Shown here: positions 7,520 through 55,107 of the stretch, piece by piece
How positions within the stretch are numbered: position 1 is the stretch's first letter
Layout: each line of letters begins with the position of its first letter
Source: an uncultured Candidatus Saccharibacteria bacterium
GTDB lineage: Bacteria > Patescibacteriota > Saccharimonadia > Saccharimonadales > 2-12-FULL-41-12
Direction: 5' to 3'
Assembly (NCBI GenBank): GCA_964615775.1
Contig: CAZTQB010000005.1
Coordinates: 1,950-65,949, forward strand
DNA length: 64,000 bases
Position numbers and translations under genes: made by a program
Notes under the pieces: model-generated
Told to the model about the DNA's origin: nothing
What the model saw: the letters and a program-made list of their open reading frames with translations, nothing else
Databases searched by the model: none

Positions 7520-7605
7520 GCCGCAGTGGCGGAATTGGTATACGCGCACGACTCAAAATCGTGTTCCCTAGCGGATTGAGGGTTCGAGTCTCTCCTGCGG
7601 CACCA
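7520..7605 (+). tRNA. tRNA-Leu (anticodon CAA)
   Basis: Hand-folded cloverleaf: acceptor GCCGCAG/CTGCGGC, anticodon stem CACGA/TCGTG with loop CTCAAAA, long variable arm, T-arm GAGGG-TTCGAGT-CTCTC, encoded CCA. Confidence 0.9.
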
Positions 7606-7655
7606 AACCATCTAGATACACCAATTCCTGTTTGAAATTCAGCCAGATTGTTAAA

Positions 7656-8417
7656 TTACTCGATTATTGATGTAGCTATTGCTTGCAGCTGCTTTTTGGG
7701 TTGCTGAATAGCCCAAACCATTCCCTTGCAAAAGTTGTATTTTTGTTGGTCACAAGCAATAACTTGGCTACCTTGAGCCAGCCAGATAGTTGAGTTAGTA
7801 TACAGAGCTAACGTGGTAGGAAAATTCATAGAGATTTTGCTTAACGATTCAGCGATTAACCAGTTAGGAGAGTCCGAGGTAATTGGCTTGTCAAAGCTCA
7901 GACTAATGCCAATTTGTTGTAATGTTTTTATGTCTATCTCTAAGATTGTATTATCTCGAGCAAGTAGACTTTGCCAACCCAGGCTCAAGCTTTCTAGGCT
8001 ACTAGAGTTTATTCCTAGTAAACCTCTGTATTTGCTCAAAAATTTGTCAAGTGTCAGGGAAGTTTCACTATTTTTGCCCATATTACCTGCAAGCATTATC
8101 CCATCTACGTTTTTAGCAAGATCTAACATTTCAGACAGCGATCTCTCGGCAAAACTACCGCTCCTATTGGCTGGTCCGTAATGTATAAAAGGAATATTTT
8201 TGGTTACTTTTTGCAAAGACTCTGGTACAAGTAAAAAACATGCTCCTACACCTGCTTGTTCGGCCATAGTGTAGCTTTGGGCGACATTAGCTAGGTTGTC
8301 GGCTGAGCCACCGACTATCAATAGCTTGCCGGCTCCATTTCTATTTTCTGGGCGTGACCATAAAATGTCCGGAAAAAGTGGCTCATTTTTCTGGGTCTGC
8401 CAGTTTTGCTGCATCAT
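7656..8417 (-). CDS. YjeF C-terminal-like carbohydrate kinase / putative NAD(P)H-hydrate dehydratase
   Basis: 'GKLLIVGGSADNLANVAQSYTMAEQAGVGACFLLVP' resembles the N-terminal signature of ADP-dependent NAD(P)HX dehydratases (LVIGGS..Y.GA...A..AA.R.GAG). The rest is divergent. Confidence 0.5.
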   Translation of the reverse strand: MMQQNWQTQKNEPLFPDILWSRPENRNGAGKLLIVGGSADNLANVAQSYTMAEQAGVGACFLLVPESLQKVTKNIPFIHYGPANRSGSFAERSLSEMLDLAKNVDGIMLAGNMGKNSETSLTLDKFLSKYRGLLGINSSSLESLSLGWQSLLARDNTILEIDIKTLQQIGISLSFDKPITSDSPNWLIAESLSKISMNFPTTLALYTNSTIWLAQGSQVIACDQQKYNFCKGMVWAIQQPKKQLQAIATSIIE

Positions 8418-8454
8418 AGTTTAATTATAGCGTTTTGTTGTATTCATCAGTGAA

Positions 8455-9348
8455 CTAACTCTTACGATAATAAGCCGAGTTAAATGCACATAGAGTATTA
8501 TAGAGCGTGCCATTACACATGCTTTGTGTGTAATTTTCCTGAGCTTTCTTATCGCTAGCACTAAATCCGCAAACACCCGCAACCCTAACGGCTGCCATTG
8601 GTTCTAATCCTGTTTTTTTTAATAACTCGTTATATCTCTCAAAATATTGAATCAGTCTTGAAGGGTCTATTTTTACCGAACCATTATAATCTTTTGAGTA
8701 TCCCATAGCTTGCTTAATGCCGCTGTATGAAACTTCTGCCCCAAACAGAATGGGCATATCTTCTTTAACGTGCCTTAAGGCGTTTAAAGTCTTTTCTATT
8801 TCTCTTGGTTCTTGAAGGGCTGCTGGAGGTACGATAACAATTCCTGGTCGTCTATTTCCGTGTATTTGCTCTATTTCACCTAAAAATTCCTCTACGAGAC
8901 TAGGAGTTGCAAGCTTGCCCAGCCTTAAGCAGTATGGGTTGAAGGCTGAGTAAAAAGCTAATCGACTATGGTCATTAAGCAAAAACTTACCTAGATTAGT
9001 CATTGCGACTTCTGATCCATTGAAGTGTCTTTCAGGAGTAAGTGAATGGTTGCGTTGACCGGTCAATAAATGTGATGTGTGGAATGGGGTATCTTTCGGT
9101 AAGTCTTCGGCAGTTGTATCAGTAGCTAGGCCAATAACAGGAATTCCTGGAGCTGATTCTCTGGCTATTTTTAAGGCATGTTCTATATCTGATTCTCTAC
9201 ACACATCGAGGATTTTTACTGGACCTCGGTGTGTACCTTCGTAAATACCTATGAGCAAGTGACTCATTGCTTCAATTCTTTCTTCGCTGGCGACATACGC
9301 ACGGCTTGAACAGAGTTCCGGGCTAGTTTCTTGGTTTGTCATAAACAT
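8455..9348 (-). CDS. Hypothetical protein
   Basis: 297-aa ORF with coding-like composition. No motif I recognise. Confidence 0.5.
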   Translation of the reverse strand: MFMTNQETSPELCSSRAYVASEERIEAMSHLLIGIYEGTHRGPVKILDVCRESDIEHALKIARESAPGIPVIGLATDTTAEDLPKDTPFHTSHLLTGQRNHSLTPERHFNGSEVAMTNLGKFLLNDHSRLAFYSAFNPYCLRLGKLATPSLVEEFLGEIEQIHGNRRPGIVIVPPAALQEPREIEKTLNALRHVKEDMPILFGAEVSYSGIKQAMGYSKDYNGSVKIDPSRLIQYFERYNELLKKTGLEPMAAVRVAGVCGFSASDKKAQENYTQSMCNGTLYNTLCAFNSAYYRKS

Positions 9349-45899: not shown

Positions 45900-45954
45900 A
45901 GAAATATATTATATAATATTCGGGTGCATAAATTAAATCTGTTAGAATGTAGTT

Positions 45955-46221
45955 ATGGTAAAAGTTAGTGAAAATAAAGGTACAGTTCACATGCTTCCGG
46001 CTGATCTAAAAAAAACGATAAATACCAGCCAAATTTCGGCAAGAGTCTGGAATGATATAACACCACTAGCTCGCAATGAGTATATATGCTGGGTAGAATC
46101 TGCTAAAAAGCCGGAGACTCGAATCAAACGAATTTTGTGGGCAACTGAGAATCTTGCCAAAAACAAACGTCGACCATGTTGCTGGGCTGGTTGTCCGCAT
46201 AGGCAGCGAAACGGAAAATAA
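45955..46221 (+). CDS. YdeI/OmpD-associated family protein
   Basis: 88 aa. 'WNDITPLARNEYICWVESAKKPETRIKRI' is typical of the YdeI/OmdA domain. Confidence 0.7.
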   Translation: MVKVSENKGTVHMLPADLKKTINTSQISARVWNDITPLARNEYICWVESAKKPETRIKRILWATENLAKNKRRPCCWAGCPHRQRNGK

Positions 46222-46269
46222 ACTATCGGTTAAACCACAGCCTAGCTTAAGAAAACGATTTGGAGTTAC

Positions 46270-46620
46270 TTAAACTATAGTTTGCAATCGAAACTCTACC
46301 ATCTGCTTGATTAGTTTTTTTGGCAAAGGTTTGTTGTGCAAAAACTGAACAGCACCCTTTGACGTTTTAAAATTAGCCAGTTCTTGCCCAAAATGTTTTA
46401 TAACTGAAGGTGTAGGATAAAAACCGATGTGATTTTTATATCCAGCGTAGTGAACCAAGTTTTTACCGTTCAGCTTAAAGGTAGGTATGCCATAGTTAAT
46501 CACCTCTTCAGCACTAGGTATTAAATCTTTGATAATCTTACGGACTGTACCTAATCTAATTAAAACTTCATCATCAAACTGTTTTAAATATTTATCGACT
46601 TCGTTTGGCTTCATAATCAT
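46270..46620 (-). CDS. DUF1801 (YdhG-like) domain protein
   Basis: 116 aa. 'EVINYGIPTFKLNGKNLVHYAGYKNHIGFYP' is the DUF1801 core. Confidence 0.7.
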   Translation of the reverse strand: MIMKPNEVDKYLKQFDDEVLIRLGTVRKIIKDLIPSAEEVINYGIPTFKLNGKNLVHYAGYKNHIGFYPTPSVIKHFGQELANFKTSKGAVQFLHNKPLPKKLIKQMVEFRLQTIV

Positions 46621-47035
46621 TTGTTTCAGTGTAGGCTCGAATCAACATTTTCTTAAAAACTGCCAGATCAATATCTTTCAAAGATTTGAAATATATGCAG
46701 CCTTTACCGCGAGTGAACTTACCAAAGTGTTTTAGCTCGTTTTCAAACTGATCGGCATCACAGCTTAGGTATAAACTATAAGCAGTTTTACGCGGACTAA
46801 AGCCAATTTTCATCCAGTCACCTTCTCGGCCGGAGGCGTATTTGTATCGATATGTACCGAAACCGATAATACTCGTTCCCCACATAATTGGTGCCTCACC
46901 CGATATTTCTTTCATTAGTTCAATTATTTCCAAGGATTCTACTTGCTTGACGTCATCAAGTGTTTTTAAGTACGATGTGACTTTTTCATTTGTGGGGACA
47001 GTTTTGTTGGTTGTCATGGTGTGATTATATATCAA
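46592..47035 (-). CDS. DUF1801 domain protein
   Basis: 147 aa. 'MWGTSIIGFGTYRYKYASGREGDWMKIGFSPRK' is the DUF1801 core. Its 3' end overlaps the next paralog. Confidence 0.7.
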   Translation of the reverse strand: MIYNHTMTTNKTVPTNEKVTSYLKTLDDVKQVESLEIIELMKEISGEAPIMWGTSIIGFGTYRYKYASGREGDWMKIGFSPRKTAYSLYLSCDADQFENELKHFGKFTRGKGCIYFKSLKDIDLAVFKKMLIRAYTETNDYEAKRSR

Positions 47036-47226
47036 TTTTGCCTAGCTATCTGCATGCCTGCCCTATGTATGGCTATAGTCTATTTTTTACGGCATCATAA
47101 AATCTAATCGCATCAACTTGAGTTGTCGTTCCATGGTTAATCAATGGACCATTATAAAAAATGTAATAATTTCCACTTTTCAGTATATACTTTCGTTAGT
47201 TAGGAAAAAGTAATATTATATATAGT

Positions 47227-48696
47227 ATGGATGAGTCTTTACACTTTCCGATATCTATTGTAATTCTGCACTTAATTAACCTATTTTGCTTGATTTTACT
47301 TATTCGGAGCGGTGTACAGATATTATACGACCACCCCAAACTTTATTGGACTGACGATACTACTGATGATAATCACTGGTTGCGATTTGGTAAAAAAATT
47401 ATGCCTAAAGACAAACTTTGGACATCGCTTGACGAGGCTGAAGATCCTGGCAAGCTAGCTCTGCCGGGTGGTACTCATAATCTTGGTGCGGCCAGGCATT
47501 GGCACTTTACAACCGCAATAATATGGGTAGTTACTGGACTTATCTATGTTTCTTATTTGTTTGTTAGTGGGCAATGGCAACGTCTATTACCGACCGATGT
47601 AGGTGTAGTTGGTCGAGCGTTTGATGTTATGCATAGTTATCTGACACTAAATATCCCTGCAGAAGGTGCAACTTATAATGCCTTACAACAACTGAGCTAT
47701 GCTGGCGTTATTTTCATTTTAGCACCTTTATCGATCTTAACTGGTCTAGCTTTATCGCCTGCTTTAGTGGCAAAATATCCTGGCTTTTTGAAGATTTTTG
47801 GCAATCGCCGGCAAGTTGCTCGTAGTCTGCATTTTATCGCTATGGGGCTTTTCTCGATGTTTATTATCGTTCATGTAACTATAGCTATTGGGCTACATTT
47901 TTATGACAGTATCAAGCTAATTACGTTCGGTAACACTGATGTTGATTTTGCACTGGCTCTAACAGTCTTTTTGATGGCCATAATTTTGCTTGTGGTATTC
48001 AATATTTGGGCATCGCTCTTTACGCTCAACAACCAAGCTCGTCTCCGGACGATTCTTACTCGGTTTTATACACCTGTCGTCAGACTATTGTTGGGAAATA
48101 TGAAGTCAAATCAGCACTATAGCAAAAAAGATATTTCACCGTTTTTTAGGGTTAATGGTTACCCGCCAAATACCGAAGAATACTCGAAGCTAAAAAGCAA
48201 TGATTTTAAAAATTGGAAGCTTAAAGTACATGGCTTGGTTGATAAGCCTCTAGAAATGTCGCTTGATGAAATTAAGTCGCTGCACAAACAAGACCAGATA
48301 ACTAAGCATAATTGTATTCAGGGCTGGACAGCTGTTGCCGAATGGGGAGGTTTACCAATGCGAGATTTGGTGAAGTTATGTAAGCCACAAAAATCAGCCA
48401 AGTATGTAATATTTCATTGCTATGATATTGATGAGCATGGCCGACCTTACTACACTGGGCTTCGACTAGACGACATGTATGATAAACAGACAATTTTGGC
48501 ATACGAAATGAATGGTGAGCCATTATCAATTGAACATGGTGCACCAGTACGTTTGAGGTGCGAGAAAAAATATGGCTATAAAATGGCGAAATACATTAAA
48601 TCTATTGAGTTTGTTGATAGTTTTGAACATATTGGCCTGGGTCGTGGTGGATACCGCGAAGATACGGTGTTCTTTGATTGGGAAGCAGCTATATAA
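47227..48696 (+). CDS. Fused b-type cytochrome membrane domain / sulfite-oxidase-family molybdopterin oxidoreductase (MsrP/YedY-like)
   Basis: N-terminal ~270 aa form 5-6 TM with conserved His (HWHFTTAIIW, HFIAMGLF..HVTIAIGLH). The C-terminal domain 'ITKHNCIQGWTAVAEWGGLPMRDL' matches the YedY-type Mo-Cys context (RC[VI][EQ].WS....W.G.P). 'HGAPVRLRCEKKYGYKMAKYI' is also present. Confidence 0.78.
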   Translation: MDESLHFPISIVILHLINLFCLILLIRSGVQILYDHPKLYWTDDTTDDNHWLRFGKKIMPKDKLWTSLDEAEDPGKLALPGGTHNLGAARHWHFTTAIIWVVTGLIYVSYLFVSGQWQRLLPTDVGVVGRAFDVMHSYLTLNIPAEGATYNALQQLSYAGVIFILAPLSILTGLALSPALVAKYPGFLKIFGNRRQVARSLHFIAMGLFSMFIIVHVTIAIGLHFYDSIKLITFGNTDVDFALALTVFLMAIILLVVFNIWASLFTLNNQARLRTILTRFYTPVVRLLLGNMKSNQHYSKKDISPFFRVNGYPPNTEEYSKLKSNDFKNWKLKVHGLVDKPLEMSLDEIKSLHKQDQITKHNCIQGWTAVAEWGGLPMRDLVKLCKPQKSAKYVIFHCYDIDEHGRPYYTGLRLDDMYDKQTILAYEMNGEPLSIEHGAPVRLRCEKKYGYKMAKYIKSIEFVDSFEHIGLGRGGYREDTVFFDWEAAI

Positions 48697-48719
48697 AATA
48701 AATTTTCTGTAAATTAATT

Positions 48720-49925
48720 ATGGCAAAAAAACAAAAAAACAAAAAAACAAAAAACTCAAAGTACATAGCTCTTACGCTGGCTGTAGCTGCGTTAGTGGTA
48801 AATTTTTGGGCTTGGTCACTACTGAGTCCTTTAGGCACAGTTTATGCTAATGAGTTTTCGCTTAGCTCGATACAGTTATCTTTATTGTTGGCTGTTCCAG
48901 TATTGGTCGGATCACTTGGCAGAATCATATTTGGCATTATTACCGACAAAATTGGCGGCCGTAGGGCTTTCACGCTTATTTGTTTGGTGTGTGCAGTTCC
49001 AGTATTTGGCTTGATGATGGCAAACACTTACTATCAGCTATTACTAATAGCTTTTTTGCTTGGTGTTGGTGGTGCAGCTTTTGTGGTGGGAATTCCATTT
49101 GTCGGTGCTTGGTTCCCGCCGGAACGCAGAGGACTGGTGCTAGGTATTTATAGTATGGGAAATGCTGGTACGGCTCTGTCTGGCTTTGCTACGCCACGAC
49201 TAGCAGATTACTTAGGCAGGGACATAACTTTTTTGATTGTTGGCCTATTGTTAGTATTTATGGCAGTATTATTTTTAATAATTGGTCAAAATGCTCCAGG
49301 CTGGAAACCACCAAAAACTTCGTCTCTAAGTTCTCTAAAAAAAGCGATGAAGTTTCAAGTAACCTGGGATTTGTCGGCCGTTTATATCATAACTTTTGGA
49401 GCATTTGTGGCTTTTGGTGTTTATTTGCCGGTATTGCTAAAAACCACCTACAACCTATCATTGACAGACGCAGCAACAAAAGCTGCTGGTTTTGTGCTGC
49501 TGGCAACTATTGCTCGCCCAGTTGGCGGTTGGTTGAGTGATAAAATTGGCGGTCGTTTAGTCATAAAAGCCTCTCTTTTAGGAGTAATAATCCTAGCATG
49601 TTTTGTTGCCTTTCAGTCTACGCTTGGGGTTAAAGCAACGATAGTCTATTTATCACTGGCGTTTATACTGGGTTGTTCCAACGGTGCGGTATTTGCACTT
49701 GTTGGTAGGTCGGTCAGTGCCGATATTATGGGCAGTGTCACCGGAGTCATTGGTGCGGTCGGTGGCTTAGGCGGTTTCTTGCCCCCGCTAGTGCTTGGTT
49801 TAACCTATCAAAAAACTCACTCATACGCTCCAGCACTAATCATGCTAGCTATTAGTGCATTCGTTGTTTTAGTGTATGTAAACTGGCGTTTCCGAGATAA
49901 AGTACTATATCATAGGTGTATATAG
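48720..49925 (+). CDS. MFS transporter, nitrate/nitrite porter (NarK/NNP)-like
   Basis: 12 TM. Gly-rich NNP-type signatures 'GIYSMGNAGTALSG' and 'VIGAVGGLGGFLPP'. Confidence 0.75.
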   Translation: MAKKQKNKKTKNSKYIALTLAVAALVVNFWAWSLLSPLGTVYANEFSLSSIQLSLLLAVPVLVGSLGRIIFGIITDKIGGRRAFTLICLVCAVPVFGLMMANTYYQLLLIAFLLGVGGAAFVVGIPFVGAWFPPERRGLVLGIYSMGNAGTALSGFATPRLADYLGRDITFLIVGLLLVFMAVLFLIIGQNAPGWKPPKTSSLSSLKKAMKFQVTWDLSAVYIITFGAFVAFGVYLPVLLKTTYNLSLTDAATKAAGFVLLATIARPVGGWLSDKIGGRLVIKASLLGVIILACFVAFQSTLGVKATIVYLSLAFILGCSNGAVFALVGRSVSADIMGSVTGVIGAVGGLGGFLPPLVLGLTYQKTHSYAPALIMLAISAFVVLVYVNWRFRDKVLYHRCI

Positions 49926-50672
49926 ATGGAAACTTACACTTTATTAAAGCAAAAGCATTTAGTCATGGTGCGGCACGGAGAGAGTGAGGGTGATGTGCGG
50001 CGAGCCTCAAAGAAATCTCGTAAAGAAGGTCAAAAACATCCTAGAGATGAGGGTCAGACAGAACTGGGTCATGAACAATCACATATAGCAGGGTTATGGA
50101 TTTCAAAATTTATTCTGCAAAAGTACAATTTGAACCAATTTGATGCCTACCTTACTTCCCCACTAATTAGGACAAAACAATCAACTATCTCACTGAGCGT
50201 AAGTAATAGCTGGACAGAAGATTTACGGTTAGCTGAGCGTGATCGTGGCGATATACAAGGACTAAATAGAAACCAACACAAAGATCAATATCCAGAAAGC
50301 TATAAAACTATGCAAGAACATCCATTCTACTGGGTGCCTCCTAGTGGCGAGTCGCTGCTGAGAGTGTCGATGAGGTTTAGTGAATTAATCAATGAAATCA
50401 CTAAGAAATATAGCTCTATACTCATGATGACCCACAGAGATGTTATGTGGGCATCGCATGTACCTCTTGGGGGGGGGTTAGATGAGATTGAAGAGGTTGA
50501 TACTGACAAAATCGGTAATAGTCATATTTTTCACTTTACCAATATTAATCCAAGTGATGGAACATTAAGTCCGGACTTAAACTGGAAAATGTCTGTTGAT
50601 CCACTCAAAACAAATGGCAAAGAAGAATGGATTGATCTTAGAAAAGCGAAATCTAGTCAAATAATCTCATAA
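49926..50672 (+). CDS. Histidine phosphatase (phosphoglycerate-mutase-like) family protein
   Basis: 'LVMVRHGESEGD' (RHG motif) and 'MMTHRDVM'. The ATG directly abuts the upstream TAG. Contains a G9 tract. Confidence 0.78.
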   Translation: METYTLLKQKHLVMVRHGESEGDVRRASKKSRKEGQKHPRDEGQTELGHEQSHIAGLWISKFILQKYNLNQFDAYLTSPLIRTKQSTISLSVSNSWTEDLRLAERDRGDIQGLNRNQHKDQYPESYKTMQEHPFYWVPPSGESLLRVSMRFSELINEITKKYSSILMMTHRDVMWASHVPLGGGLDEIEEVDTDKIGNSHIFHFTNINPSDGTLSPDLNWKMSVDPLKTNGKEEWIDLRKAKSSQIIS

Positions 50673-50744
50673 AAATATAAATTTAATAATTGGACTTTTA
50701 GAACTGTGTGATATTTGCTGGATATGCTTTAGAGGTTTTCCGAC

Positions 50745-50933
50745 TTATTTTTTGAAACTACCTATCATTGCTCTTAACCCGGTCTCATAATCTGTGGTAA
50801 TAAAGTTTGGAAACTTTGTTCTAAATTTTTTATCGGTCATGATGTATGGGTTGTCGAACTGATATAACATCTCCTTCGCTTCCCTGACGATTGGAACTAA
50901 CAAAGCTATTACATTTAACATTGGTCGCGGCAT
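50745..50933 (-). pseudogene. Probable C-terminal fragment of an NAD-dependent epimerase/SDR-type gene
   Basis: The 62-aa ORF 'LYQFDNPYIMTDKKFRTKFPNFITTDYETGLRAMIGSFKK' looks like only the extreme C-terminus of extended-SDR/epimerase-type proteins. No Rossmann part is present. Confidence 0.35.
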
Positions 50934-50960
50934 AACTGAAATTTTATACGACGAACCCTA

Positions 50961-51010
50961 TATTCTCATACGCAGTAGCCTATTTCGATGGAAAAAAGAT
51001 ATTCTTTTGT
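50961..51010 (+). pseudogene. Fragment of a HAM1/RdgB-type pyrophosphatase gene
   Basis: 50961-50991 is identical (31/31 nt) to 54506-54536 inside the intact HAM1-like gene and encodes the same 'SYAVAYFDG'. About 20 further nt are similar but diverged. Confidence 0.6.
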
Positions 51011-51011
51011 T

Positions 51012-51530
51012 CTAAGGTTTTAGATAACTATCAAAAGGACGTACGTAGTGGCATGTATAACCGCTTGGATTGTTTTGTAAATAATCTTGATGGTAATCTT
51101 CGGCTGTCCAAAATTTTGTGAATGCTTCGAGTGTGGTGACCACAGGACTATGCCAATTATTTGATTTATCAACTAATTTGATCATTTTTTTAGCATCTGA
51201 AAGCTCTGATTGGTTTTGGTAGAATATTGCTGACCTGTATGATGATCCAGTATCGTTGCCTTGACGATTGAGCGTAGTCGGGTCATGTATTCTAAAGAAA
51301 TAATCAAGAATGTGAATATATGAGGTCTTAGAATCATCATAGCTTACCTTTAATCCTTCGGCATGGCCCGGGTGATTGTGGTAGTTTGGATTGTCATTTG
51401 AGCCACCTATATAACCTACTTCAGTATCAACAACTCCTGGTTGCTGTCTCATCAAATCTTCTAAACCCCAAAAGCAGCCACCTGCTAAATATGCTTTTTT
51501 AATCATGTCTAATTTTATATTTTTTATCAA
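51012..51530 (-). CDS. msrA: Peptide-methionine (S)-S-oxide reductase
   Basis: 'AYLAGGCFWGLE' active site. The true start may be the internal Met at 51506. Confidence 0.93.
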   Translation of the reverse strand: MIKNIKLDMIKKAYLAGGCFWGLEDLMRQQPGVVDTEVGYIGGSNDNPNYHNHPGHAEGLKVSYDDSKTSYIHILDYFFRIHDPTTLNRQGNDTGSSYRSAIFYQNQSELSDAKKMIKLVDKSNNWHSPVVTTLEAFTKFWTAEDYHQDYLQNNPSGYTCHYVRPFDSYLKP

Positions 51531-51882
51531 AATCTAGTGATAATGAGTTAATGCAATAACGTACGCCTGTCGTTTCTTTTGGTCCATCATTAAATATATG
51601 ACCTAAATGTCCGCCACATTTTGCACAGACTACTTCTGTACGCCGCATACCGTGGGATTTGTCGATGACTTGTTTTATGGAATTCGGCAAAGCATGATCG
51701 AAACTTGGCCAGCCCGAGCCTGAGTCAAATTTTGTATCAGATGAAAAAAGCTGGGAATTACAGGCCGCACATTTGTATGTACCATTTTCTTTATTATGCA
51801 GGAACTTACCGCTATAAGGTGCTTCCGTAGCTTTATCTATTAAAACGGCTTTTTGCTCATTGGTTAAATGATTGTACTGCAT
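51499..51882 (-). CDS. msrB: Peptide-methionine (R)-S-oxide reductase
   Basis: ATG at 51882 is preceded by GGAAAGGAG. Zn-Cys pairs 'CAACNSQLF' and 'CAKCGGHLGHIF', plus 'GWPSF'. Confidence 0.93.
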   Translation of the reverse strand: MQYNHLTNEQKAVLIDKATEAPYSGKFLHNKENGTYKCAACNSQLFSSDTKFDSGSGWPSFDHALPNSIKQVIDKSHGMRRTEVVCAKCGGHLGHIFNDGPKETTGVRYCINSLSLDFDKKYKIRHD

Positions 51883-51950
51883 TATTTTCTCCTTTCCAGA
51901 TTTTACTAACTCCAAAGTATAAACACATTAATCATTATACCTGTCTTGCA

Positions 51951-52126
51951 TGTTAAAACTTGCAAATAACATTGAAGATCTGTACTTAAAAGTTGACCGA
52001 GATCAAAAGCGGTCTATTTTAAATCTCATAGTCTCGAACTTTCAGTTAGAAGACAAATTACTGAGGTGGAAATACAAAAAGCCATTCGATTTGATGGCTT
52101 TTTGTGCTAAAAATGCAAATTGGCTC
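51951..52126 (+). repeat. Direct repeat copy 1 (176 bp; serine-recombinase 3'-end remnant)
   Basis: Hand alignment to 54863-55038 gives 168/176 identical, with 1 mismatch in the last 127 nt. Encodes 'LKLANNIEDLYLKVDRDQKRSILNLIVSNFQLEDKLLRWKYKKPFDLMAFCAKNANWL'. Confidence 0.85.
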
Positions 52127-52496
52127 ACGTTAGTGGAAGAGCTAGAGGAGAGTTTTAAACACCCAACAGAGGTGGACGCTCTCACAACTTGCTCCCTCTC
52201 TGCAATTGAAAGCCTACTCCCCCCCTGCTAATAATCCAATCACAGATTGACAATCATGATTACGAGTCTGGATCAGGGCGTCGTACAATGTCGAATATTG
52301 TGCGATGACCCCAGCGAGTAGTTCGTATGTCGTAAAAGAACTTTTGCGACCATACCCCTACCTCCCCTTTGACACTTCTGTTTTTCTAGATTCAGTTCTC
52401 ACGCAAATTTTTTATTACTTCTATACATCCGACAAATGACCTCTGTTGTAAAAAAATGAGTAATATGTCATTATAGAATCAAGAAAGGAAGATGTA

Positions 52497-52934
52497 ATGA
52501 GTAGCCACGATATTGAAACTACTGACTACGATTCTACCCTTAGACTTTACAATTTAGACCTCAGACATAAGGTACGAGGTGTTTGGGATGAAAATATCCC
52601 TATAATTAACCATACCGTTATTGAAGCGCGTGGTCTATCACGATCATTTCTTGACTCATCAAAAAAACTAAGGGCAGCTTGTGATCAATTTTGTAATGAG
52701 GCTAATCTGAAGGTTGTAGAGCGAAGTGTGCATAACTTTAAGCCTGTAGGAAAAACGGTTTTCTATGTTTTAGAAGAAAGTCATATTTCTATGCATACAT
52801 GGCCAGAGAGTGGCTATATACACGTCGACTTAGTAACTTGTACAAAAAATGAATTGACGCCTTTAGAAATGGCCACAATCTTTGATAAATGTTTTAAGCC
52901 AACCCATATCAGACACATAAAGATGAGGTACTAG
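52497..52934 (+). CDS. speH: Pyruvoyl-dependent S-adenosylmethionine decarboxylase proenzyme (small prokaryotic class)
   Basis: 'FYVLEESHISMHTWPESGYIHVDLVTC' is the self-cleavage (E-S) and active-site signature of bacterial/archaeal AdoMetDC. 145 aa. Confidence 0.85.
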   Translation: MSSHDIETTDYDSTLRLYNLDLRHKVRGVWDENIPIINHTVIEARGLSRSFLDSSKKLRAACDQFCNEANLKVVERSVHNFKPVGKTVFYVLEESHISMHTWPESGYIHVDLVTCTKNELTPLEMATIFDKCFKPTHIRHIKMRY

Positions 52935-52938
52935 TTTC

Positions 52939-53622
52939 ATGTTAAATCATAAGGATGTTTTAAAGAACGCACAGATAATTGCAAGCCAGCGTCCCACTGC
53001 CGATTTATCAGTGGAGCAATACTTGATGACCGCAGAGAGTCTCGCTAGACAGGTAAGTTGTTTGCAGAATGTCTTTTTAGACAAAAAGGTATTGCATATT
53101 GGTGATGACGACCATCTGTCAGTACTCTTTGCATTATACCTAAACTGTCATCCTGTCATTTTAGAGTACGATCCAAGAGTAAGGAAAAGTTTGCGGTCTA
53201 GCTTTAGTAGTTTTCGTATACAAAACTACTCAATTCTTAAGTATGATGTAAGAGAATTCATACCGAACGGAGTAAAAGCTGACACGTTTTACATTAATCC
53301 ACCTTACTCATCTAAAAATAATGGTAAGGGCGTTAAAGTATGGGTAAGCAGAGCATCTCAAGCAATACCGATTGGCTCAACTTCAGTATTAGCTTATCCG
53401 ATTGATGAAACGTTACCCTGGACTATATCTTGTCTCAAAGAGATAGTCGATTACGCATACCAGTGCGGCTTAATGATCGTAGACATCAATAGAGATATAC
53501 ATACATACGAATATTTACCAAAAGACCCAGGATTATTATCGTCTAATATATATCTATATAAATTTAAAGAGTGCATAGCTCCAGAAATAGAAGATATAGA
53601 TGGCGAATCATTATATAGATAA
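52939..53622 (+). CDS. DUF43/BpsA-like aminopropyltransferase-fold protein (GDDD + NPPY motifs)
   Basis: 'VLHIGDDDHLSVLFAL' carries the GDDD motif of branched-chain polyamine synthase BpsA/DUF43. 'DTFYINPPYSS' is an (D/N)PPY amino-group-transferase motif. At 227 aa it comprises only the catalytic domain. Confidence 0.6.
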   Translation: MLNHKDVLKNAQIIASQRPTADLSVEQYLMTAESLARQVSCLQNVFLDKKVLHIGDDDHLSVLFALYLNCHPVILEYDPRVRKSLRSSFSSFRIQNYSILKYDVREFIPNGVKADTFYINPPYSSKNNGKGVKVWVSRASQAIPIGSTSVLAYPIDETLPWTISCLKEIVDYAYQCGLMIVDINRDIHTYEYLPKDPGLLSSNIYLYKFKECIAPEIEDIDGESLYR

Positions 53623-54178
53623 AAAGGGTGAGCTTATTGCTGTGTGTGGCAGTTCAGGTTCGGGGAAAAGCACACTTGTAAGGTATGCCTTATCTACAAT
53701 GGTCGATAATCTAGACTATATGAAGACGATAACCACGAGAGAGCCAAGACCTCACGAAGACGATGTTGAGTACACATTTGCCACAAGCTCAGAGTACGAT
53801 CGGATGAGAGATCGGGCCTCCGTGTGGGATGAGTCACTCATCTATGGAAATCGTTATGGCGTCAATGCCTCATTCTATATAGAGGAAATCAGAAAAGGAA
53901 GAAATTTAATTTTTTGTAGCGTACCTTCATCGACTATCCTCGATGGTATGTGTCAAGTATATGGGAAAATTACAACTGTACATCTAAAAACAGATCTTGA
54001 AACATCATTTGAGCGTCAAAAAATGAGAGATGGAGTAAAAAATCTTGGACGCCTTGCCGTCGATAGAGCAATGGACGTGCAAAAAGCCTTCACTGCTGAC
54101 TACATTATGCAGCCTACTGGAGTCATTGATGATGATAAAGCAGAATTTTTAAAGATAATAATGGGGATAATTGAATGA
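53600..54178 (+). CDS. Guanylate-kinase-like nucleoside monophosphate kinase
   Basis: 'VCGSSGSGKSTL' P-loop, 'TTREPRPHEDDVEYTFATSSEYDRM' and 'YGNRYGV' follow the Gmk pattern (TTR.PR..E..G..Y.F; GN.YGT) but are divergent. Overlaps the upstream gene by 23 nt. Confidence 0.72.
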   Translation: MANHYIDKKGELIAVCGSSGSGKSTLVRYALSTMVDNLDYMKTITTREPRPHEDDVEYTFATSSEYDRMRDRASVWDESLIYGNRYGVNASFYIEEIRKGRNLIFCSVPSSTILDGMCQVYGKITTVHLKTDLETSFERQKMRDGVKNLGRLAVDRAMDVQKAFTADYIMQPTGVIDDDKAEFLKIIMGIIE

Positions 54179-54762
54179 ATCAACCAAAAGAAATTTATTT
54201 CGTCACATCAAATAAAAAAAAGTTTGCGAGTCTTAAAAATCAGCTGGAGACGGTAGATATTACCTTAAAACAACTTGCATTTGATTTTGACGAAGGACGA
54301 GATTTAAACATTGAAGCAGTTGCAAAATACAAGTTAACTCAGGCAAAAAAAGCATTTCCTAACAAGAAGTTGATTGTAGACGATAGAGGTTTTTTCATCC
54401 CAGCTCTTAATGGCTTTCCCGGTCCATTTGTAAAGCTATTGCTAGATAGTTTTAGCTACAAAGGGCTTATAAAACTCATGGCAGGCGAAAAAGATCGAAG
54501 TGCAGTATTCTCATACGCAGTAGCCTATTTCGATGGCAAAGAAGATGTCGTTTTTGTAGCAGATGAAACAGGTTTTATTACTAATGAACCAAAAGGTGAG
54601 AATTTGCATGGCTGGACAGAACTACTATACATCTATGGCCATCCAAGTTTTCCGAGTAGAAGCCTGGCTGAATTAGATGATAGCGAATGGAAAGATTACC
54701 TAGCTGCAATCGACGATGTTGACCCATTTTCTTTATTGAAGAAACACTTTCTTAAAAGTTAA
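54175..54762 (+). CDS. HAM1/RdgB-family non-canonical purine NTP pyrophosphatase
   Basis: 'IYFVTSNKKKFASL' and 'VDDRGFFIPALNGFPGPFVK' are HAM1-like motifs. ATGA overlap with the upstream gene. Confidence 0.85.
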   Translation: MNQPKEIYFVTSNKKKFASLKNQLETVDITLKQLAFDFDEGRDLNIEAVAKYKLTQAKKAFPNKKLIVDDRGFFIPALNGFPGPFVKLLLDSFSYKGLIKLMAGEKDRSAVFSYAVAYFDGKEDVVFVADETGFITNEPKGENLHGWTELLYIYGHPSFPSRSLAELDDSEWKDYLAAIDDVDPFSLLKKHFLKS

Positions 54763-54771
54763 TAAAATTAA

Positions 54772-55038
54772 AAGAACTTCAACTTAAAGCTCAAACTTAA
54801 ACAAGAGCGAAGAGAAAGTCTCGAACTCGCCAACGAAGACTATTACAATACGGTTTCTTATCTGTTAAAACTCGCAAATAACATAGAAAATTTGTACTTA
54901 AAAGCCGACAGAGATCAAAAGCGGTCTATTTTAAATCTCATAGTCTCGAACTTTCAGTTAGAAGACAAATTACTGAGGTGGAAATACAAAAAGCCATTCG
55001 ATTTGATGGCTTTTTGTGCAAAAAATGCAAATTGGCTC
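54772..55038 (+). pseudogene. 3'-terminal remnant of a large serine recombinase gene
   Basis: The frame, open from 54772, reads 'LKLKLKQERRESLELANEDYYNTVSYLLKLANNIENLYLKADRDQKRSILNLIVSNFQLEDKLLRWKYKKPFDLMAF...'. This matches the characteristic C-terminal tail of 'recombinase family protein' genes. No catalytic N-terminal domain or start codon is present. The frame runs on into the tRNA. Confidence 0.65.
54863..55038 (+). repeat. Direct repeat copy 2 (176 bp), ending 6 nt inside tRNA-Asn 3' end
   Basis: See copy 1. The last 6 nt (tggctc) are the complement of the tRNA discriminator plus CCA region (GAGCCA). Confidence 0.85.
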
Positions 55039-55107
55039 GGGAGGCCGGACTCGAACCGGCAACCTCGAAGTTAACAGCTTCTTGCTCCACCATTGAGCTA
55101 CTCCCGA
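55033..55107 (-). tRNA. tRNA-Asn (anticodon GTT)
   Basis: The reverse complement folds as acceptor TCGGGAG/CTCCCGA, D-arm GCTC..GAGC, anticodon loop CTGTTAA, T-arm GCCGG-TTCGAGT-CCGGC, encoded GCCA (75 nt). There is one A-G mismatch at the top of the anticodon stem. Confidence 0.88.

What the first reader, a model, noticed from the sequence alone, without database searches (positions are those of the whole stretch)
51951..55107. 2.9-kb islet at tRNA-Asn bracketed by 176-bp direct repeats made from the 3' end of a serine recombinase gene
Segments 51951-52126 and 54863-55038 align by hand at 168/176 identity, with only 1 mismatch in the distal 127 nt. Both encode the characteristic C-terminal tail of large serine recombinases (...KRSILNLIVSNFQLEDKLLRWKYKKPFDLMAF...). 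Copy 2 extends upstream to 54772 (...QERRESLELANEDYYNTVSYLL...) and runs 6 nt into the 3' end (GAGCCA) of a minus-strand tRNA-Asn, and its frame reads on through the T-arm. Copy 1 diverges exactly after the same 6 nt. Neither copy has a catalytic domain, so no intact recombinase remains. This architecture suggests either successive or tandem integrations at tRNA-Asn followed by deletion, or duplication of the junction. The repeats are long and similar enough for homologous recombination to loop out a 2,912-bp unit carrying the cassette.
Basis: seen in the sequence. Interest (0 to 1): 0.6.

Follow-up and report, generated by a model that had tools for sequence, protein, structure and literature searches.

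The report
Decayed serine-recombinase islet at tRNA-Asn
Two leftover tail-ends of serine-integrase genes bracket a four-gene operon beside a tRNA-Asn gene in a Saccharibacteria genome; they are scars of small mobile islands that insert exactly at the CCA end of tRNA genes, a habit shared by a whole integrase clade that I could not find described.

Summary
Segments 51944-52126 and 54856-55038 form a 183-nt direct repeat with 11 mismatches, ending 6 nt inside a minus-strand tRNA-Asn. Both copies are the last codons of large serine recombinase (LSR) genes. No catalytic domain survives in the window.

In 74 related metagenome loci, 41 LSR C-termini place their conserved Trp codon (TGG) exactly on the CCA of a convergent tRNA (Asn, Gln, Trp or Gly). 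Recognisable attB, attL, attR and attP-like junctions share the core TGGCTC. Copy 1 is an attP-like junction: LSR end, core, then the conserved left end of an element. Copy 2 is an attR junction: LSR end, core, tRNA. Two independent assemblies of the same species are 99.7% identical up to base 55038. They then carry another element (DUF2130 plus a PDC-S06 ATPase) in place of the tRNA.

The islet is therefore a recombinase-less unit in a decayed tandem array. Its cargo is a conserved Saccharibacteria operon (AdoMetDC, BpsA-like, guanylate-kinase-like, Ham1), not obviously foreign DNA. No loop-out variant was found.

The islet itself is an ordinary kind of thing. The CCA-targeting LSR clade, whose attP and a tRNA terminator lie inside its own reading frame, appears to be a new variant.

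The parts
51944..52126 (+). Repeat copy 1: the last 61 codons of a large serine recombinase gene (…LKLANNIEDLYLKVDRDQKRSILNLIVSNFQLEDKLLRWKYKKPFDLMAFCAKNANWL). It has no start codon and no catalytic domain. Its left edge lies 28 nt from the msrB start codon.
52121..52126 (+). Core TGGCTC of the attP-like junction (LSR 3' end | core | P' arm).
52127..52413 (+). P' arm and conserved non-coding left end of an element. Segments 52120-52224 and 52356-52413 are homologous to the attL-proximal sequence of related elements (L104, L105, L169, L113, L122). The reading frame of copy 1 runs on through this region (WLTLVEELEESFKH…) to 52231.
52497..52934 (+). Cargo gene 1: S-adenosylmethionine decarboxylase (PF02675 at 89.9 bits; TIGR03330 at 80.2 bits, above its cut-off).
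52939..53622 (+). Cargo gene 2: 227-aa BpsA_C-type (DUF43) putative aminopropyltransferase.
53600..54178 (+). Cargo gene 3: divergent guanylate-kinase-like P-loop kinase.
54175..54762 (+). Cargo gene 4: Ham1/RdgB-family nucleoside-triphosphate pyrophosphatase.
54772..55038 (+). Repeat copy 2 with its upstream extension: the last 89 codons of an LSR gene, starting 9 nt after the Ham1 stop codon. The repeat proper is 54856-55038.
54986..55017 (.). Hairpin AAAAAGCCAT-N8-ATGGCTTTTT inside codons KKPFDLMAF. On the tRNA strand it is a terminator-like stem plus U-run 15 nt after CCA. The same hairpin is in copy 1 at 52074-52105.
   Evidence: (I1)
55033..55038 (.). Core TGGCTC of the attR junction. 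It is the complement of the last 6 nt (GAGCCA) of tRNA-Asn. TGG is both the conserved Trp codon and the complement of CCA.
55033..55107 (-). Intact tRNA-Asn(GTT), the integration target.
50961..51008 (+). Fragment of about 40-48 nt from the middle of a Ham1 gene, 95% identical to 54506-54546. It is the trace of a former second copy of the operon, lying beyond msrA/msrB.
   Evidence: (D2)

Best explanation
The window comes from a Candidatus Saccharibacteria genome. Its tRNA-Asn gene is the attachment site of small integrative elements driven by one clade of large serine recombinases (LSRs).

In this clade the element's attachment site (attP) lies inside the recombinase gene itself. The conserved coding sequence ends with a Trp codon, TGG, which is the complement of the tRNA's CCA. 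Recombination happens at or next to the core TGGCTC.

After integration the LSR gene abuts the tRNA and reads on into it. The other end of the element carries the conserved P' arm. When elements sit in tandem, the LSR 3' end of the outer one is joined through the core to the P' arm of the inner one.

The window shows exactly that arrangement after decay:

- [LSR remnant 1 - core - P' arm and ~290 nt of element left end]
- [four-gene operon]
- [LSR remnant 2 - core - tRNA-Asn]

Both recombinase genes have lost everything except their last 61 and 89 codons. The 2.9-kb islet is therefore a recombinase-less unit that keeps att-like ends, comparable to a cis-mobilizable element. It could move only with a recombinase supplied in trans, or be lost by homologous recombination between the repeats.

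The retained LSR tail also carries a hairpin. On the tRNA strand this hairpin is a terminator-like structure in the position of the tRNA's native terminator, which may be why these tails persist.

Shown by the data: the identity of the repeats, the register on the tRNA across the family, the four junction types, and the strain polymorphism at the core. Inferred: the order of events, how the operon came to lie inside the element ends, and any present-day mobility.
For: 1. The repeat and the tRNA overlap are real.

2. The fragments are homologous to the extreme C-terminus of ~500-aa proteins with Resolvase, Recombinase and Zn_ribbon_recom domains.

3. Family rule. Of 72 family C-termini in 74 metagenome loci, 43 have a convergent tRNA within 60 nt. 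In 41 of these the Trp codon sits exactly on the CCA. Targets are Asn 20, Gln 19, Trp 3 and Gly 1. Thirty are reading frames of at least 470 aa.

4. All junction types are found with the same core:
- empty attB with a native terminator (L164, L182);
- attL, native flank-TGGCTC-P' (L104:242, L105:1137, L016, L164);
- attR, LSR end-TGGCTC-tRNA;
- attP-like, LSR end-TGGCTC-P' (window copy 1, L004 copy 2, L164, L124).

5. Window 52120-52224 and 52356-52413 are homologous to the left ends of related elements.

6. L001 and L004 are 99.7% identical to window 45906-55038 and diverge exactly after 55038. They continue into a class-II P' arm followed by DUF2130 and a PDC-S06 ATPase.

7. Recombinase-less islets that retain 60-95 LSR codons at the tRNA recur independently in L143, L156 and L169. 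The intact 9-kb relative L104 carries Lamassu plus the LSR.

8. No intact LSR is present in the window.
Against: - The cargo is not obviously foreign. Its GC content matches the surroundings.
- The operon is conserved in more than 60 homologous Saccharibacteria loci. In the closest one (L182) it lies natively next to an unoccupied tRNA-Asn site.
- None of the LSR loci collected carries this operon as cargo.
- Characterised LSRs recombine only attP with attB, so tandem insertion into an attR- or attL-like site is not expected from known enzymology (own knowledge of the phiC31 and Bxb1 literature).
- The islet itself shows no presence/absence polymorphism in the few assemblies available.
- The window could be an assembly collapse of an L004-like three-element array, because contigs of this species break at the repeat or the tRNA in several assemblies.
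Confidence: 0.8

Rival explanations
1. One islet unit (P' arm, operon, truncated LSR tail) was duplicated in tandem, for example by unequal exchange between sister chromosomes. The left copy then decayed and acquired msrA/msrB. On this view the two repeats descend from one remnant, not from two separately integrated elements.
For: The last 127 nt of the two copies are identical in L004 and differ at one base in the window. A 40-48-nt Ham1 fragment, 95% identical to the islet's gene, lies to the left of msrA. That is where the Ham1 gene of a left-hand copy of the unit would be.
Against: The first 55 nt of the repeat differ at 10 positions (~18%). That is far more than the rest, so at least part of copy 1 has a different ancestry or a conversion tract is needed. 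The duplication would still require an att-type junction to form, so this is a sub-variant of the main model rather than a true alternative.
Confidence: 0.2
2. The operon is native chromosomal DNA next to tRNA-Asn and was never cargo. The two LSR fragments are unrelated scars on either side of it, so there is no 2.9-kb unit.
For: In L182 the orthologous operon (AdoMetDC 79% identical) ends 197 nt from an unoccupied tRNA-Asn 3' end with its own terminator. The operon is widespread in Saccharibacteria. No LSR locus collected carries it.
Against: An LSR-end-core-P' junction plus ~290 nt of element left end lies directly upstream of the operon, away from any tRNA. The only simple origin for such a junction is the boundary between tandem elements, which puts the operon inside an element. 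The operon is framed very tightly, with 83 nt upstream and 9 nt downstream. A second Ham1 trace exists 3.5 kb away.
Confidence: 0.12
3. The repeat, or the difference between the window and L004, is an assembly artefact.
For: Contigs of this species from several samples end inside the tRNA or the repeat. This is what assemblers do at repeats. A collapse between copy 2 and a third, near-identical LSR end could have removed an L004-type element from the window.
Against: The two copies differ at 11 positions and lie in unique flanks. The same structure was assembled independently in JGI and ENA data. A collapse would change the number of elements in the array, not the nature of the junctions.
Confidence: 0.05
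4. The 93-aa reading frame (51950-52231) and the 60-aa reading frame (54892-55074) are functional small genes, such as stand-alone regulators derived from the recombinase tail.
For: Both frames are open. Short proteins of this type are numerous among the database hits.
Against: Related remnants carry stop codons and frameshifts (L002) or are fused to unrelated N-termini (P0003). Remnant lengths vary from 26 to 137 codons. There is no Pfam, PHROG or NCBIfam family for them. Copy 2 has only a TTG start codon and no evident ribosome-binding context.
Confidence: 0.03

Closest known systems
Dehalococcoides ssrA genomic islands, with the large serine recombinase DsiB (McMurdie et al. 2011, PMC3146451)
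   Same: These are small integrative islands driven by a CcrB-like large serine recombinase. They insert at the 3' end of a t(m)RNA-type gene and form tandem arrays. Many islands lack the integration module and were proposed to be cis-mobilizable.
   Different: There the target is the T-loop of the tmRNA gene, the repeat is a 20-bp copy of ssrA, and the integrase lies next to attL with a second small recombinase. Here the target is the CCA end of ordinary tRNA genes and the LSR gene abuts and overlaps the tRNA. The repeats are recombinase coding sequence because attP lies inside the reading frame.
Tycheposons of Prochlorococcus (Hackl et al., bioRxiv 10.1101/2020.12.28.424599)
   Same: They integrate site-specifically at tRNA genes. 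Newcomers push older elements into the island. The islands contain fragmented integrases, and the elements are cargo-carrying units without transfer genes.
   Different: 910 of 937 use tyrosine recombinases, and the repeats are partial tRNA copies. The passages I read do not describe the geometry of the LSR-bearing minority.
Cis-mobilizable elements and accretion-mobilization in streptococcal ICESt1/ICESt3 (own knowledge; concept cited in PMC3146451 and PMC5704250)
   Same: These are units flanked by att sites that have lost their recombinase. They were produced by tandem site-specific accretion followed by deletion, and can be excised in trans.
   Different: They depend on tyrosine recombinases and 3' gene-end targets with identical core repeats. 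Mobility in trans has been shown experimentally there but not here.
SSV1-type archaeal integrases (own knowledge)
   Same: attP lies inside the integrase gene and matches a tRNA gene. Integration therefore changes the integrase reading frame, and int fragments accumulate at tRNA genes.
   Different: They are tyrosine recombinases and the gene is split near its 5' end, which inactivates it. Here only the last ~10-20 codons are exchanged, and the integrated gene stays full length (30 reading frames of at least 470 aa).
Characterised phage serine integrases (phiC31, Bxb1, A118, TP901-1)
   Same: Full-length relatives have the same domain architecture: Resolvase, Recombinase, Zn ribbon and a C-terminal region.
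   Different: Known members target protein-coding or intergenic sites with attP outside the gene. A 2020 survey stated that use of t(m)RNA genes by serine integrases had not been reported (PMC7192596). A 2022 large-scale LSR survey does not mention tRNA in its text.

Membership tests
Large serine recombinase (serine integrase) | N-terminal resolvase catalytic domain | tested here: not met
   This domain is absent from both window copies and from the whole window. It is present in full-length homologues whose C-terminus matches the fragments. The window therefore holds gene remnants, not a recombinase.
Large serine recombinase (serine integrase) | Homology of the fragments to the C-terminal part of proteins with Recombinase and Zn_ribbon_recom domains | tested here: met
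   phmmer gave 515 hits. For example, P0014 (501 aa) matches at residues 418-490 with E = 8e-16. Domain content is and tblastn results.
Large serine recombinase (serine integrase) | Short attP and attB sites recombined at a 2-bp crossover, with directionality controlled by a recombination directionality factor | not testable with these tools
   Only the junction sequences are available. The shared core is TGGCTC, and the crossover dinucleotide cannot be placed within it.
tRNA-linked integrative element or genomic island | Boundary at the 3' end of a tRNA gene, with the tRNA left intact | tested here: met
   The repeat ends 6 nt inside an intact tRNA-Asn. The same register holds in 41 related loci.
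tRNA-linked integrative element or genomic island | Variable presence among related genomes, with an empty site | tested here: inconclusive
   An adjacent element is polymorphic, with its breakpoint exactly at the core (L001 and L004 against the window). Empty tRNA-Asn sites exist in L164 and L182. The islet itself is present in every contig of this species that reaches it.
tRNA-linked integrative element or genomic island | Atypical base composition | tested here: not met
   GC is 0.36-0.40 across the islet and its flanks.
Cis-mobilizable element (recombinase-less unit in a tandem array) | Flanked by att-type junctions in direct orientation | tested here: met
   Copy 1 is LSR end-TGGCTC-P'. 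Copy 2 is LSR end-TGGCTC-tRNA.
Cis-mobilizable element (recombinase-less unit in a tandem array) | No recombinase of its own | tested here: met
Cis-mobilizable element (recombinase-less unit in a tandem array) | Excision or mobilization by a related recombinase in trans | not testable with these tools
   No circle or deletion junction was found in the assemblies.
Polyamine (aminopropyl) biosynthesis module | AdoMet decarboxylase plus an aminopropyltransferase | tested here: inconclusive
   AdoMet_dc scores 89.9 bits and BpsA_C 45.2 bits, both above their Pfam thresholds. The partner kinase-like and Ham1 genes are not part of known polyamine pathways, and the substrate is unknown.

The most novel reading that the evidence does not exclude
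This clade of large serine recombinases has its attachment site inside its own reading frame, at the Trp codon that is the complement of the tRNA CCA end. Integration and excision therefore exchange the enzyme's last ~10-20 residues. The free form would carry a conserved element-encoded tail (for example LTTIEEVITxIKxDL). The integrated form carries a tail translated from the antisense tRNA. That exchange could act as a built-in sensor of integration state, controlling recombinase stability or directionality.

The same coding tail also supplies a replacement terminator for the tRNA. That would explain why 26-137-codon tails are what survives when these elements decay. The islet in the window would then be one of many tail-bounded cassettes that such recombinases can still shuffle.
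Probability: 0.25. Interest if true: 0.8.

Novelty: new variant of a known kind. Interest (0 to 1): 0.6.

Why it matters
Islands at tRNA genes containing integrase debris are familiar, and on that level the islet is ordinary. What stands out is the recombinase.

Serine integrases are generally held not to use tRNA genes. Here a whole clade does so with single-nucleotide regularity, in Saccharibacteria and other candidate-phyla bacteria and also in human-gut contigs.

The clade has several unusual features:
- its attP lies inside its own gene;
- two alternative C-terminal tails are encoded on the two sides of the crossover;
- a terminator-like hairpin inside the coding sequence is kept through compensatory changes.

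The elements are small (about 2.6 to 9 kb) and mostly carry defence systems. This offers a concrete mechanism for how the reduced genomes of these bacteria exchange defence and accessory cassettes.

The clade also offers a set of naturally diversified LSR and att pairs aimed at universally conserved sequences, which is of interest for genome engineering. All of this can be tested directly with plasmid recombination assays.

Tried and rejected
- Pfam, PHROG and NCBIfam give nothing for the two fragments themselves. The word-indexed protein search with the fragment found only three short hits. The exhaustive HMMER search was needed.
- Two viral-contig scans, one with the LSR fragment and one with the BpsA-like protein, found nothing. 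The BpsA-like protein has no match in the phage collection.
- I looked for an intact recombinase in the window and found none. Further att-like sites (P' class I, P' class II, native B-arm hairpin) were also absent elsewhere in the window.
- I looked for a deletion variant, an empty site, or the far junction of the third element using exact look-ups of SmpB, MsrB and MsrA. All contigs stop at the tRNA or the repeat, and MsrB is not on record. The DUF2130 protein of element 3 occurs only on the L001/L004-type contigs, the longest 11.9 kb.
- Genome-collection relatives found through SmpB share synteny on the smpB side only. The closest one (79% identity) ends 74 nt after the tRNA, though its flank already reads like an LSR tail.
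- Rfam and the promoter/terminator scans of the islet found nothing beyond the tRNA.
- PADLOC gives no convincing defence assignment for the four cargo genes.
- I considered that paired LSR genes in L128, L136 and L146 were tandem copies of this family. The distal gene belongs to a different LSR subfamily, so I rejected that.
- I considered calling the window's P' arm degenerate because it lacks the CTTCGCAAC motif. I dropped the idea because the Trp-type arms have a similar ELEK-coding variant.


Full report
**1. The observation**

The window holds a 183-nt direct repeat, 51944-52126 and 54856-55038, at 94% identity and 2912 nt spacing. Of the 11 mismatches, 10 fall in the first 55 nt and one at 52108.

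tRNA-Asn(GTT) lies at 55033-55107 on the minus strand (Rfam 64.5 bits). The repeat ends at 55038, so its last six bases, TGGCTC, are the complement of the tRNA's terminal GAGCCA. Copy 1 departs from copy 2 immediately after the same six bases.

Copy 2 is preceded by 28 more in-frame codons back to 54772, nine bases after the stop codon of the upstream gene. Its frame runs on into the tRNA (…NANWLGRPDSNRQPRS*).

Two independent assemblies of the same species contain both copies with the same cargo: L001 (JGI 3300007493) and L004 (ENA ERZ27275264). The repeat is therefore not a duplication made by one assembler.

**2. What the repeats are**

Curated profile libraries do not cover the fragments, and a word-indexed search found only three short relatives.

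An exhaustive HMMER search against 1.84 billion representatives gave 515 hits. The hits of about 500 aa carry Resolvase and Recombinase domains, and most also carry Zn_ribbon_recom. They match the query with their extreme C-terminus (for example P0014 residues 418-490).

tblastn with six full-length relatives finds nothing else in the window, so no catalytic domain remains.

**3. A family rule that explains the geometry**

Many full-length relatives end in peptides such as …NWLPGSDSNGQP or …NWLRGLDSNQQPSR. These are translations of the antisense strand of a tRNA T-arm.

I scanned metagenome contigs with an alignment of the C-terminal region and obtained 74 loci. Across them I found 72 family C-termini:
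- 43 have a convergent tRNA within 60 nt.
- In 41 of these, the conserved Trp codon TGG lies exactly on the complement of the tRNA's CCA.
- The other two are offset by 34 nt because a partial tRNA end is duplicated.
- Targets are tRNA-Asn (20), Gln (19), Trp (3) and Gly (1). The six-base junction changes with the tRNA: TGGCTC, TGGCTG, TGGCAG, TGGTGC.
- Thirty of these are reading frames of at least 470 aa.

Two unannotated human-gut contigs in the phage collection show the same overlap with tRNA-Glu and tRNA-Leu.

Database names attached to close relatives include Saccharibacteria, Uhrbacteria and Ignavibacteria.

**4. The four junction types**

Searching the loci for the sequence that follows TGGCTC in copy 1 gave 61 sites. 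All but one, a likely chance match, lie in the orientation of the LSR gene. Reading them side by side shows four types:
- **attB, unoccupied:** a native flank with a terminator hairpin, then TGGCTC, then the tRNA (L164, L182).
- **attL:** the same kind of native flank, then TGGCTC, then a conserved P' arm. It lies 2.6-9 kb upstream of an LSR-tRNA junction (for example L104 at 242 and 9283, L105 at 1137 and 10256).
- **attR:** LSR 3' end, then TGGCTC, then the tRNA.
- **attP-like:** LSR 3' end, then TGGCTC, then a P' arm. Examples are window copy 1, copy 2 of L004, L164 and L124.

In a chromosome, the attP-like junction is what forms between two elements lying in tandem.

The window's sequence after copy 1 is homologous to the left ends of related elements over 52120-52224 and again over 52356-52413. 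The left border of the islet is therefore a genuine element end, and the right border is a genuine attR.

**5. The polymorphism**

L001 and L004 match window 45906-55038 at 99.7% and stop matching exactly after 55038. In place of the tRNA they continue with a class-II P' arm (WLTTIEEVITAIKQDL…). This is followed on the other strand by a DUF2130 protein and an AAA ATPase that matches the candidate defence family PDC-S06. A breakpoint that coincides with the core to the nucleotide is the signature of site-specific recombination.

That test is only half answered. The neighbouring position is polymorphic. The islet itself is present in every contig that reaches it (L001, L004, L005, L006).

I found no deletion variant. 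Contigs of this species from other samples simply end in the tRNA or the repeat. That pattern also means I cannot exclude that the window is an assembly collapse of an L004-like three-element array.

**6. What intact and decayed relatives look like**

L104 is the closest full element on tRNA-Asn. It is 9 kb between attL and attR and carries a Lamassu system (LmuA, LmuC, LmuB) plus the LSR and a few small genes. It has no phage or conjugation genes.

Units that have lost the recombinase but keep 60-95 of its last codons at the tRNA recur independently:
- L169: Gabija plus a KAP NTPase.
- L156: an NsnA/GmrSD-like nuclease, a HEPN protein and a GIY-YIG protein.
- L143: a protein kinase and a TPR protein.

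Close remnants in other Saccharibacteria contigs sit beside Gabija-like genes or a DNA methylase and NYN genes.

The window's islet therefore belongs to a recurrent class: a recombinase-less, att-bounded cassette in a tRNA-linked array.

**7. The cargo**

The four genes overlap or nearly abut and read in one direction. They are:
- an AdoMet decarboxylase;
- a 227-aa BpsA_C-type putative aminopropyltransferase;
- a divergent guanylate-kinase-like protein;
- a Ham1-family NTP pyrophosphatase.

This is not typical island cargo. GC content is the same as the flanks. The BpsA-like protein has more than 60 homologues of the same length at 36-68% identity. In the four loci I examined, the same genes occur in the same order among unrelated neighbours.

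In the closest locus, L182, the operon ends 197 nt from an unoccupied tRNA-Asn 3' end that keeps its own terminator. None of the LSR loci collected carries the operon.

A 40-48-nt piece from the middle of a Ham1 gene lies at 50961-51008, beyond msrA and msrB. It is 95% identical to the islet's copy. The genome therefore once held two copies of the operon in direct orientation.

The operon may be native to the flank of tRNA-Asn and have been captured into an element. Alternatively, the unit may have been duplicated and the left copy decayed. I could not distinguish these two histories.

**8. The mosaic repeat**

The 5' 55 nt of the copies differ by about 18%, while the last 127 nt are identical in L004 and differ at one base in the window. 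A more distant remnant, L002, is diverged throughout. The identity is therefore not a family-wide constraint. It indicates gene conversion between the two copies, or a recombination breakpoint inside the LSR tail.

A tract of 127 identical bases is enough for occasional RecA-dependent loop-out (own knowledge). No evidence for or against loop-out is available.

**9. Two features of the recombinase tail**

First, the hairpin. Codons KKPFDLMAF form AAAAAGCCAT-N8-ATGGCTTTTT. On the tRNA strand this is a 12-bp stem and U-run 15 nt after CCA (-17.4 kcal/mol, z = -4.4). Native flanks of empty sites carry a terminator in the equivalent place. Across 48 distinct family sequences:
- the stem is paired in 82% of cells, against 26-48% when the partner strand is slid;
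- the KEPF..MVL clade keeps the stem through paired changes (AAG…GCTT to GAA…GTTC) that alter the amino acids on both sides;
- the Gln/Trp clade uses a re-registered CCG/ACGG stem.

These changes may represent few evolutionary events, and coding constraints confound the counts, so I treat the hairpin as a good lead rather than proof.

Second, the P' arms. They fall into conserved classes. Class II has an invariant DNA core, ATAGAGGAAGT. Around that core it shows synonymous variation that preserves W-L-x-T-I-E-E-V-I-T-x-I-K-x-D-L, and a stop codon follows 15-20 codons after the Trp. This suggests that the excised form of the enzyme carries a conserved tail, which integration replaces with a tRNA-encoded one.

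**10. Comparison with what is known**

- The general process is described for tycheposons: repeated integration at one tRNA, older elements pushed inward, integrase fragments left behind.
- The Dehalococcoides ssrA islands use a CcrB-like serine recombinase, form tandem arrays and include integrase-less islands proposed to be cis-mobilizable.
- A 2020 survey found 14 of 297 serine-integrase elements at t(m)RNA genes. It stated that such use had not been reported and needed proof.
- A large LSR discovery paper does not mention tRNA.
- Searches combining serine recombinase or integrase with Saccharibacteria, Patescibacteria or tRNA found no description of this clade.

These searches cover open-access papers and preprints only.

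**11. Verdict**

The islet is a decayed, recombinase-less member of a tandem array at tRNA-Asn, which is a known kind of structure.

Three things differ from known cases:
- the recombinase family;
- its nucleotide-exact use of the tRNA CCA end, with attP inside its own reading frame;
- the resulting repeats, which are made of recombinase coding sequence rather than tRNA sequence.

Present-day mobility of the islet, the order of insertions and the origin of the cargo remain inferred.

Noticed in passing
window 50961-51008: An orphan piece of about 40-48 nt from the middle of a Ham1 gene, 95% identical to 54506-54546. It lies between a short minus-strand ORF and the 3' end of msrA, and indicates a lost second copy of the operon.
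   Followed up: partly
window 54986-55017 and 52074-52105; alignment A3: A 10-12-bp hairpin inside the conserved KKPF..MAF codons of the recombinase. It looks like a terminator for the tRNA. It is kept by compensatory changes in one clade and re-registered in another.
   Followed up: yes
L001 8934-11528; L004 9129-11923: Same-species contigs carry a further element after the core: a class-II P' arm, a 427-aa DUF2130 protein and a PDC-S06-type AAA ATPase. The far end, and any intact recombinase, was not recovered.
   Followed up: partly
L104, L169, L156, L143, L096-L100, L094: Related elements and recombinase-less islets at tRNA genes mostly carry anti-phage systems: Lamassu, Gabija, an NsnA/GmrSD nuclease with HEPN, a kinase with TPR, and a methylase with NYN.
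   Followed up: partly
L182 2570-5107; L178, L180, L181: The operon AdoMetDC, BpsA_C-like, guanylate-kinase-like, Ham1 is a conserved four-gene unit in Saccharibacteria with varied neighbours. In L182 it abuts an unoccupied tRNA-Asn. The pairing of an aminopropyl-transfer module with a nucleotide kinase and an NTP pyrophosphatase has no known pathway that I can name.
   Followed up: partly
P' arms in L001/L004, L002, L016, L115, L124, L164, L172, L174: The sequence after the core encodes a conserved tail (WL.TIEEVIT.IK.DL) with synonymous variation and a consistent stop codon. This suggests that the excised form of the recombinase has a different C-terminus from the integrated form. Other classes are WL.LVD.LRN, WLGLVD.FQE and WL.LQVTN.
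   Followed up: partly
L164 6643-10864: Four P'-type junctions lie within 3.5 kb, about 650 nt from a tRNA-Asn that keeps its native flank. This is an array of very short units next to a reconstituted empty site.
   Followed up: no
L176 (MT836653.1) 7574-9156; L177 (MT837677.1) 844-2389: Unannotated 'Bacteriophage sp.' contigs from human faeces encode related recombinases (32-34% identity) whose 3' ends overlap tRNA-Glu and tRNA-Leu. In the tRNA-Leu contig a Trp codon lies exactly on the CCA. The tRNA-targeting habit therefore extends beyond candidate-phyla bacteria.
   Followed up: partly
window 47227-51915: The DNA to the left of the islet groups three methionine-sulfoxide repair functions: msrB, msrA, and a fused cytochrome-b/molybdopterin oxidoreductase of the MsrPQ type. 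An MFS transporter and a histidine phosphatase lie with them. This side of tRNA-Asn is not syntenic in relatives, whereas the smpB side is.
   Followed up: partly
L007-L013, L101 against window 55012-55088 and 51.9-52.0 kb: Contigs of this species from at least six sequencing runs end inside the tRNA-Asn gene or the repeat. This is consistent with population heterogeneity or repeat-induced breaks at this locus.
   Followed up: partly
L018 10725-15995: A Patescibacteria genome has a full-length family recombinase 3.2 kb from tRNA-Asn with a tRNA-like tail (WLPGLGSNQT) but no tRNA called at its end. A stray tRNA 3' fragment lies about 100 nt after the tRNA-Asn gene.
   Followed up: no
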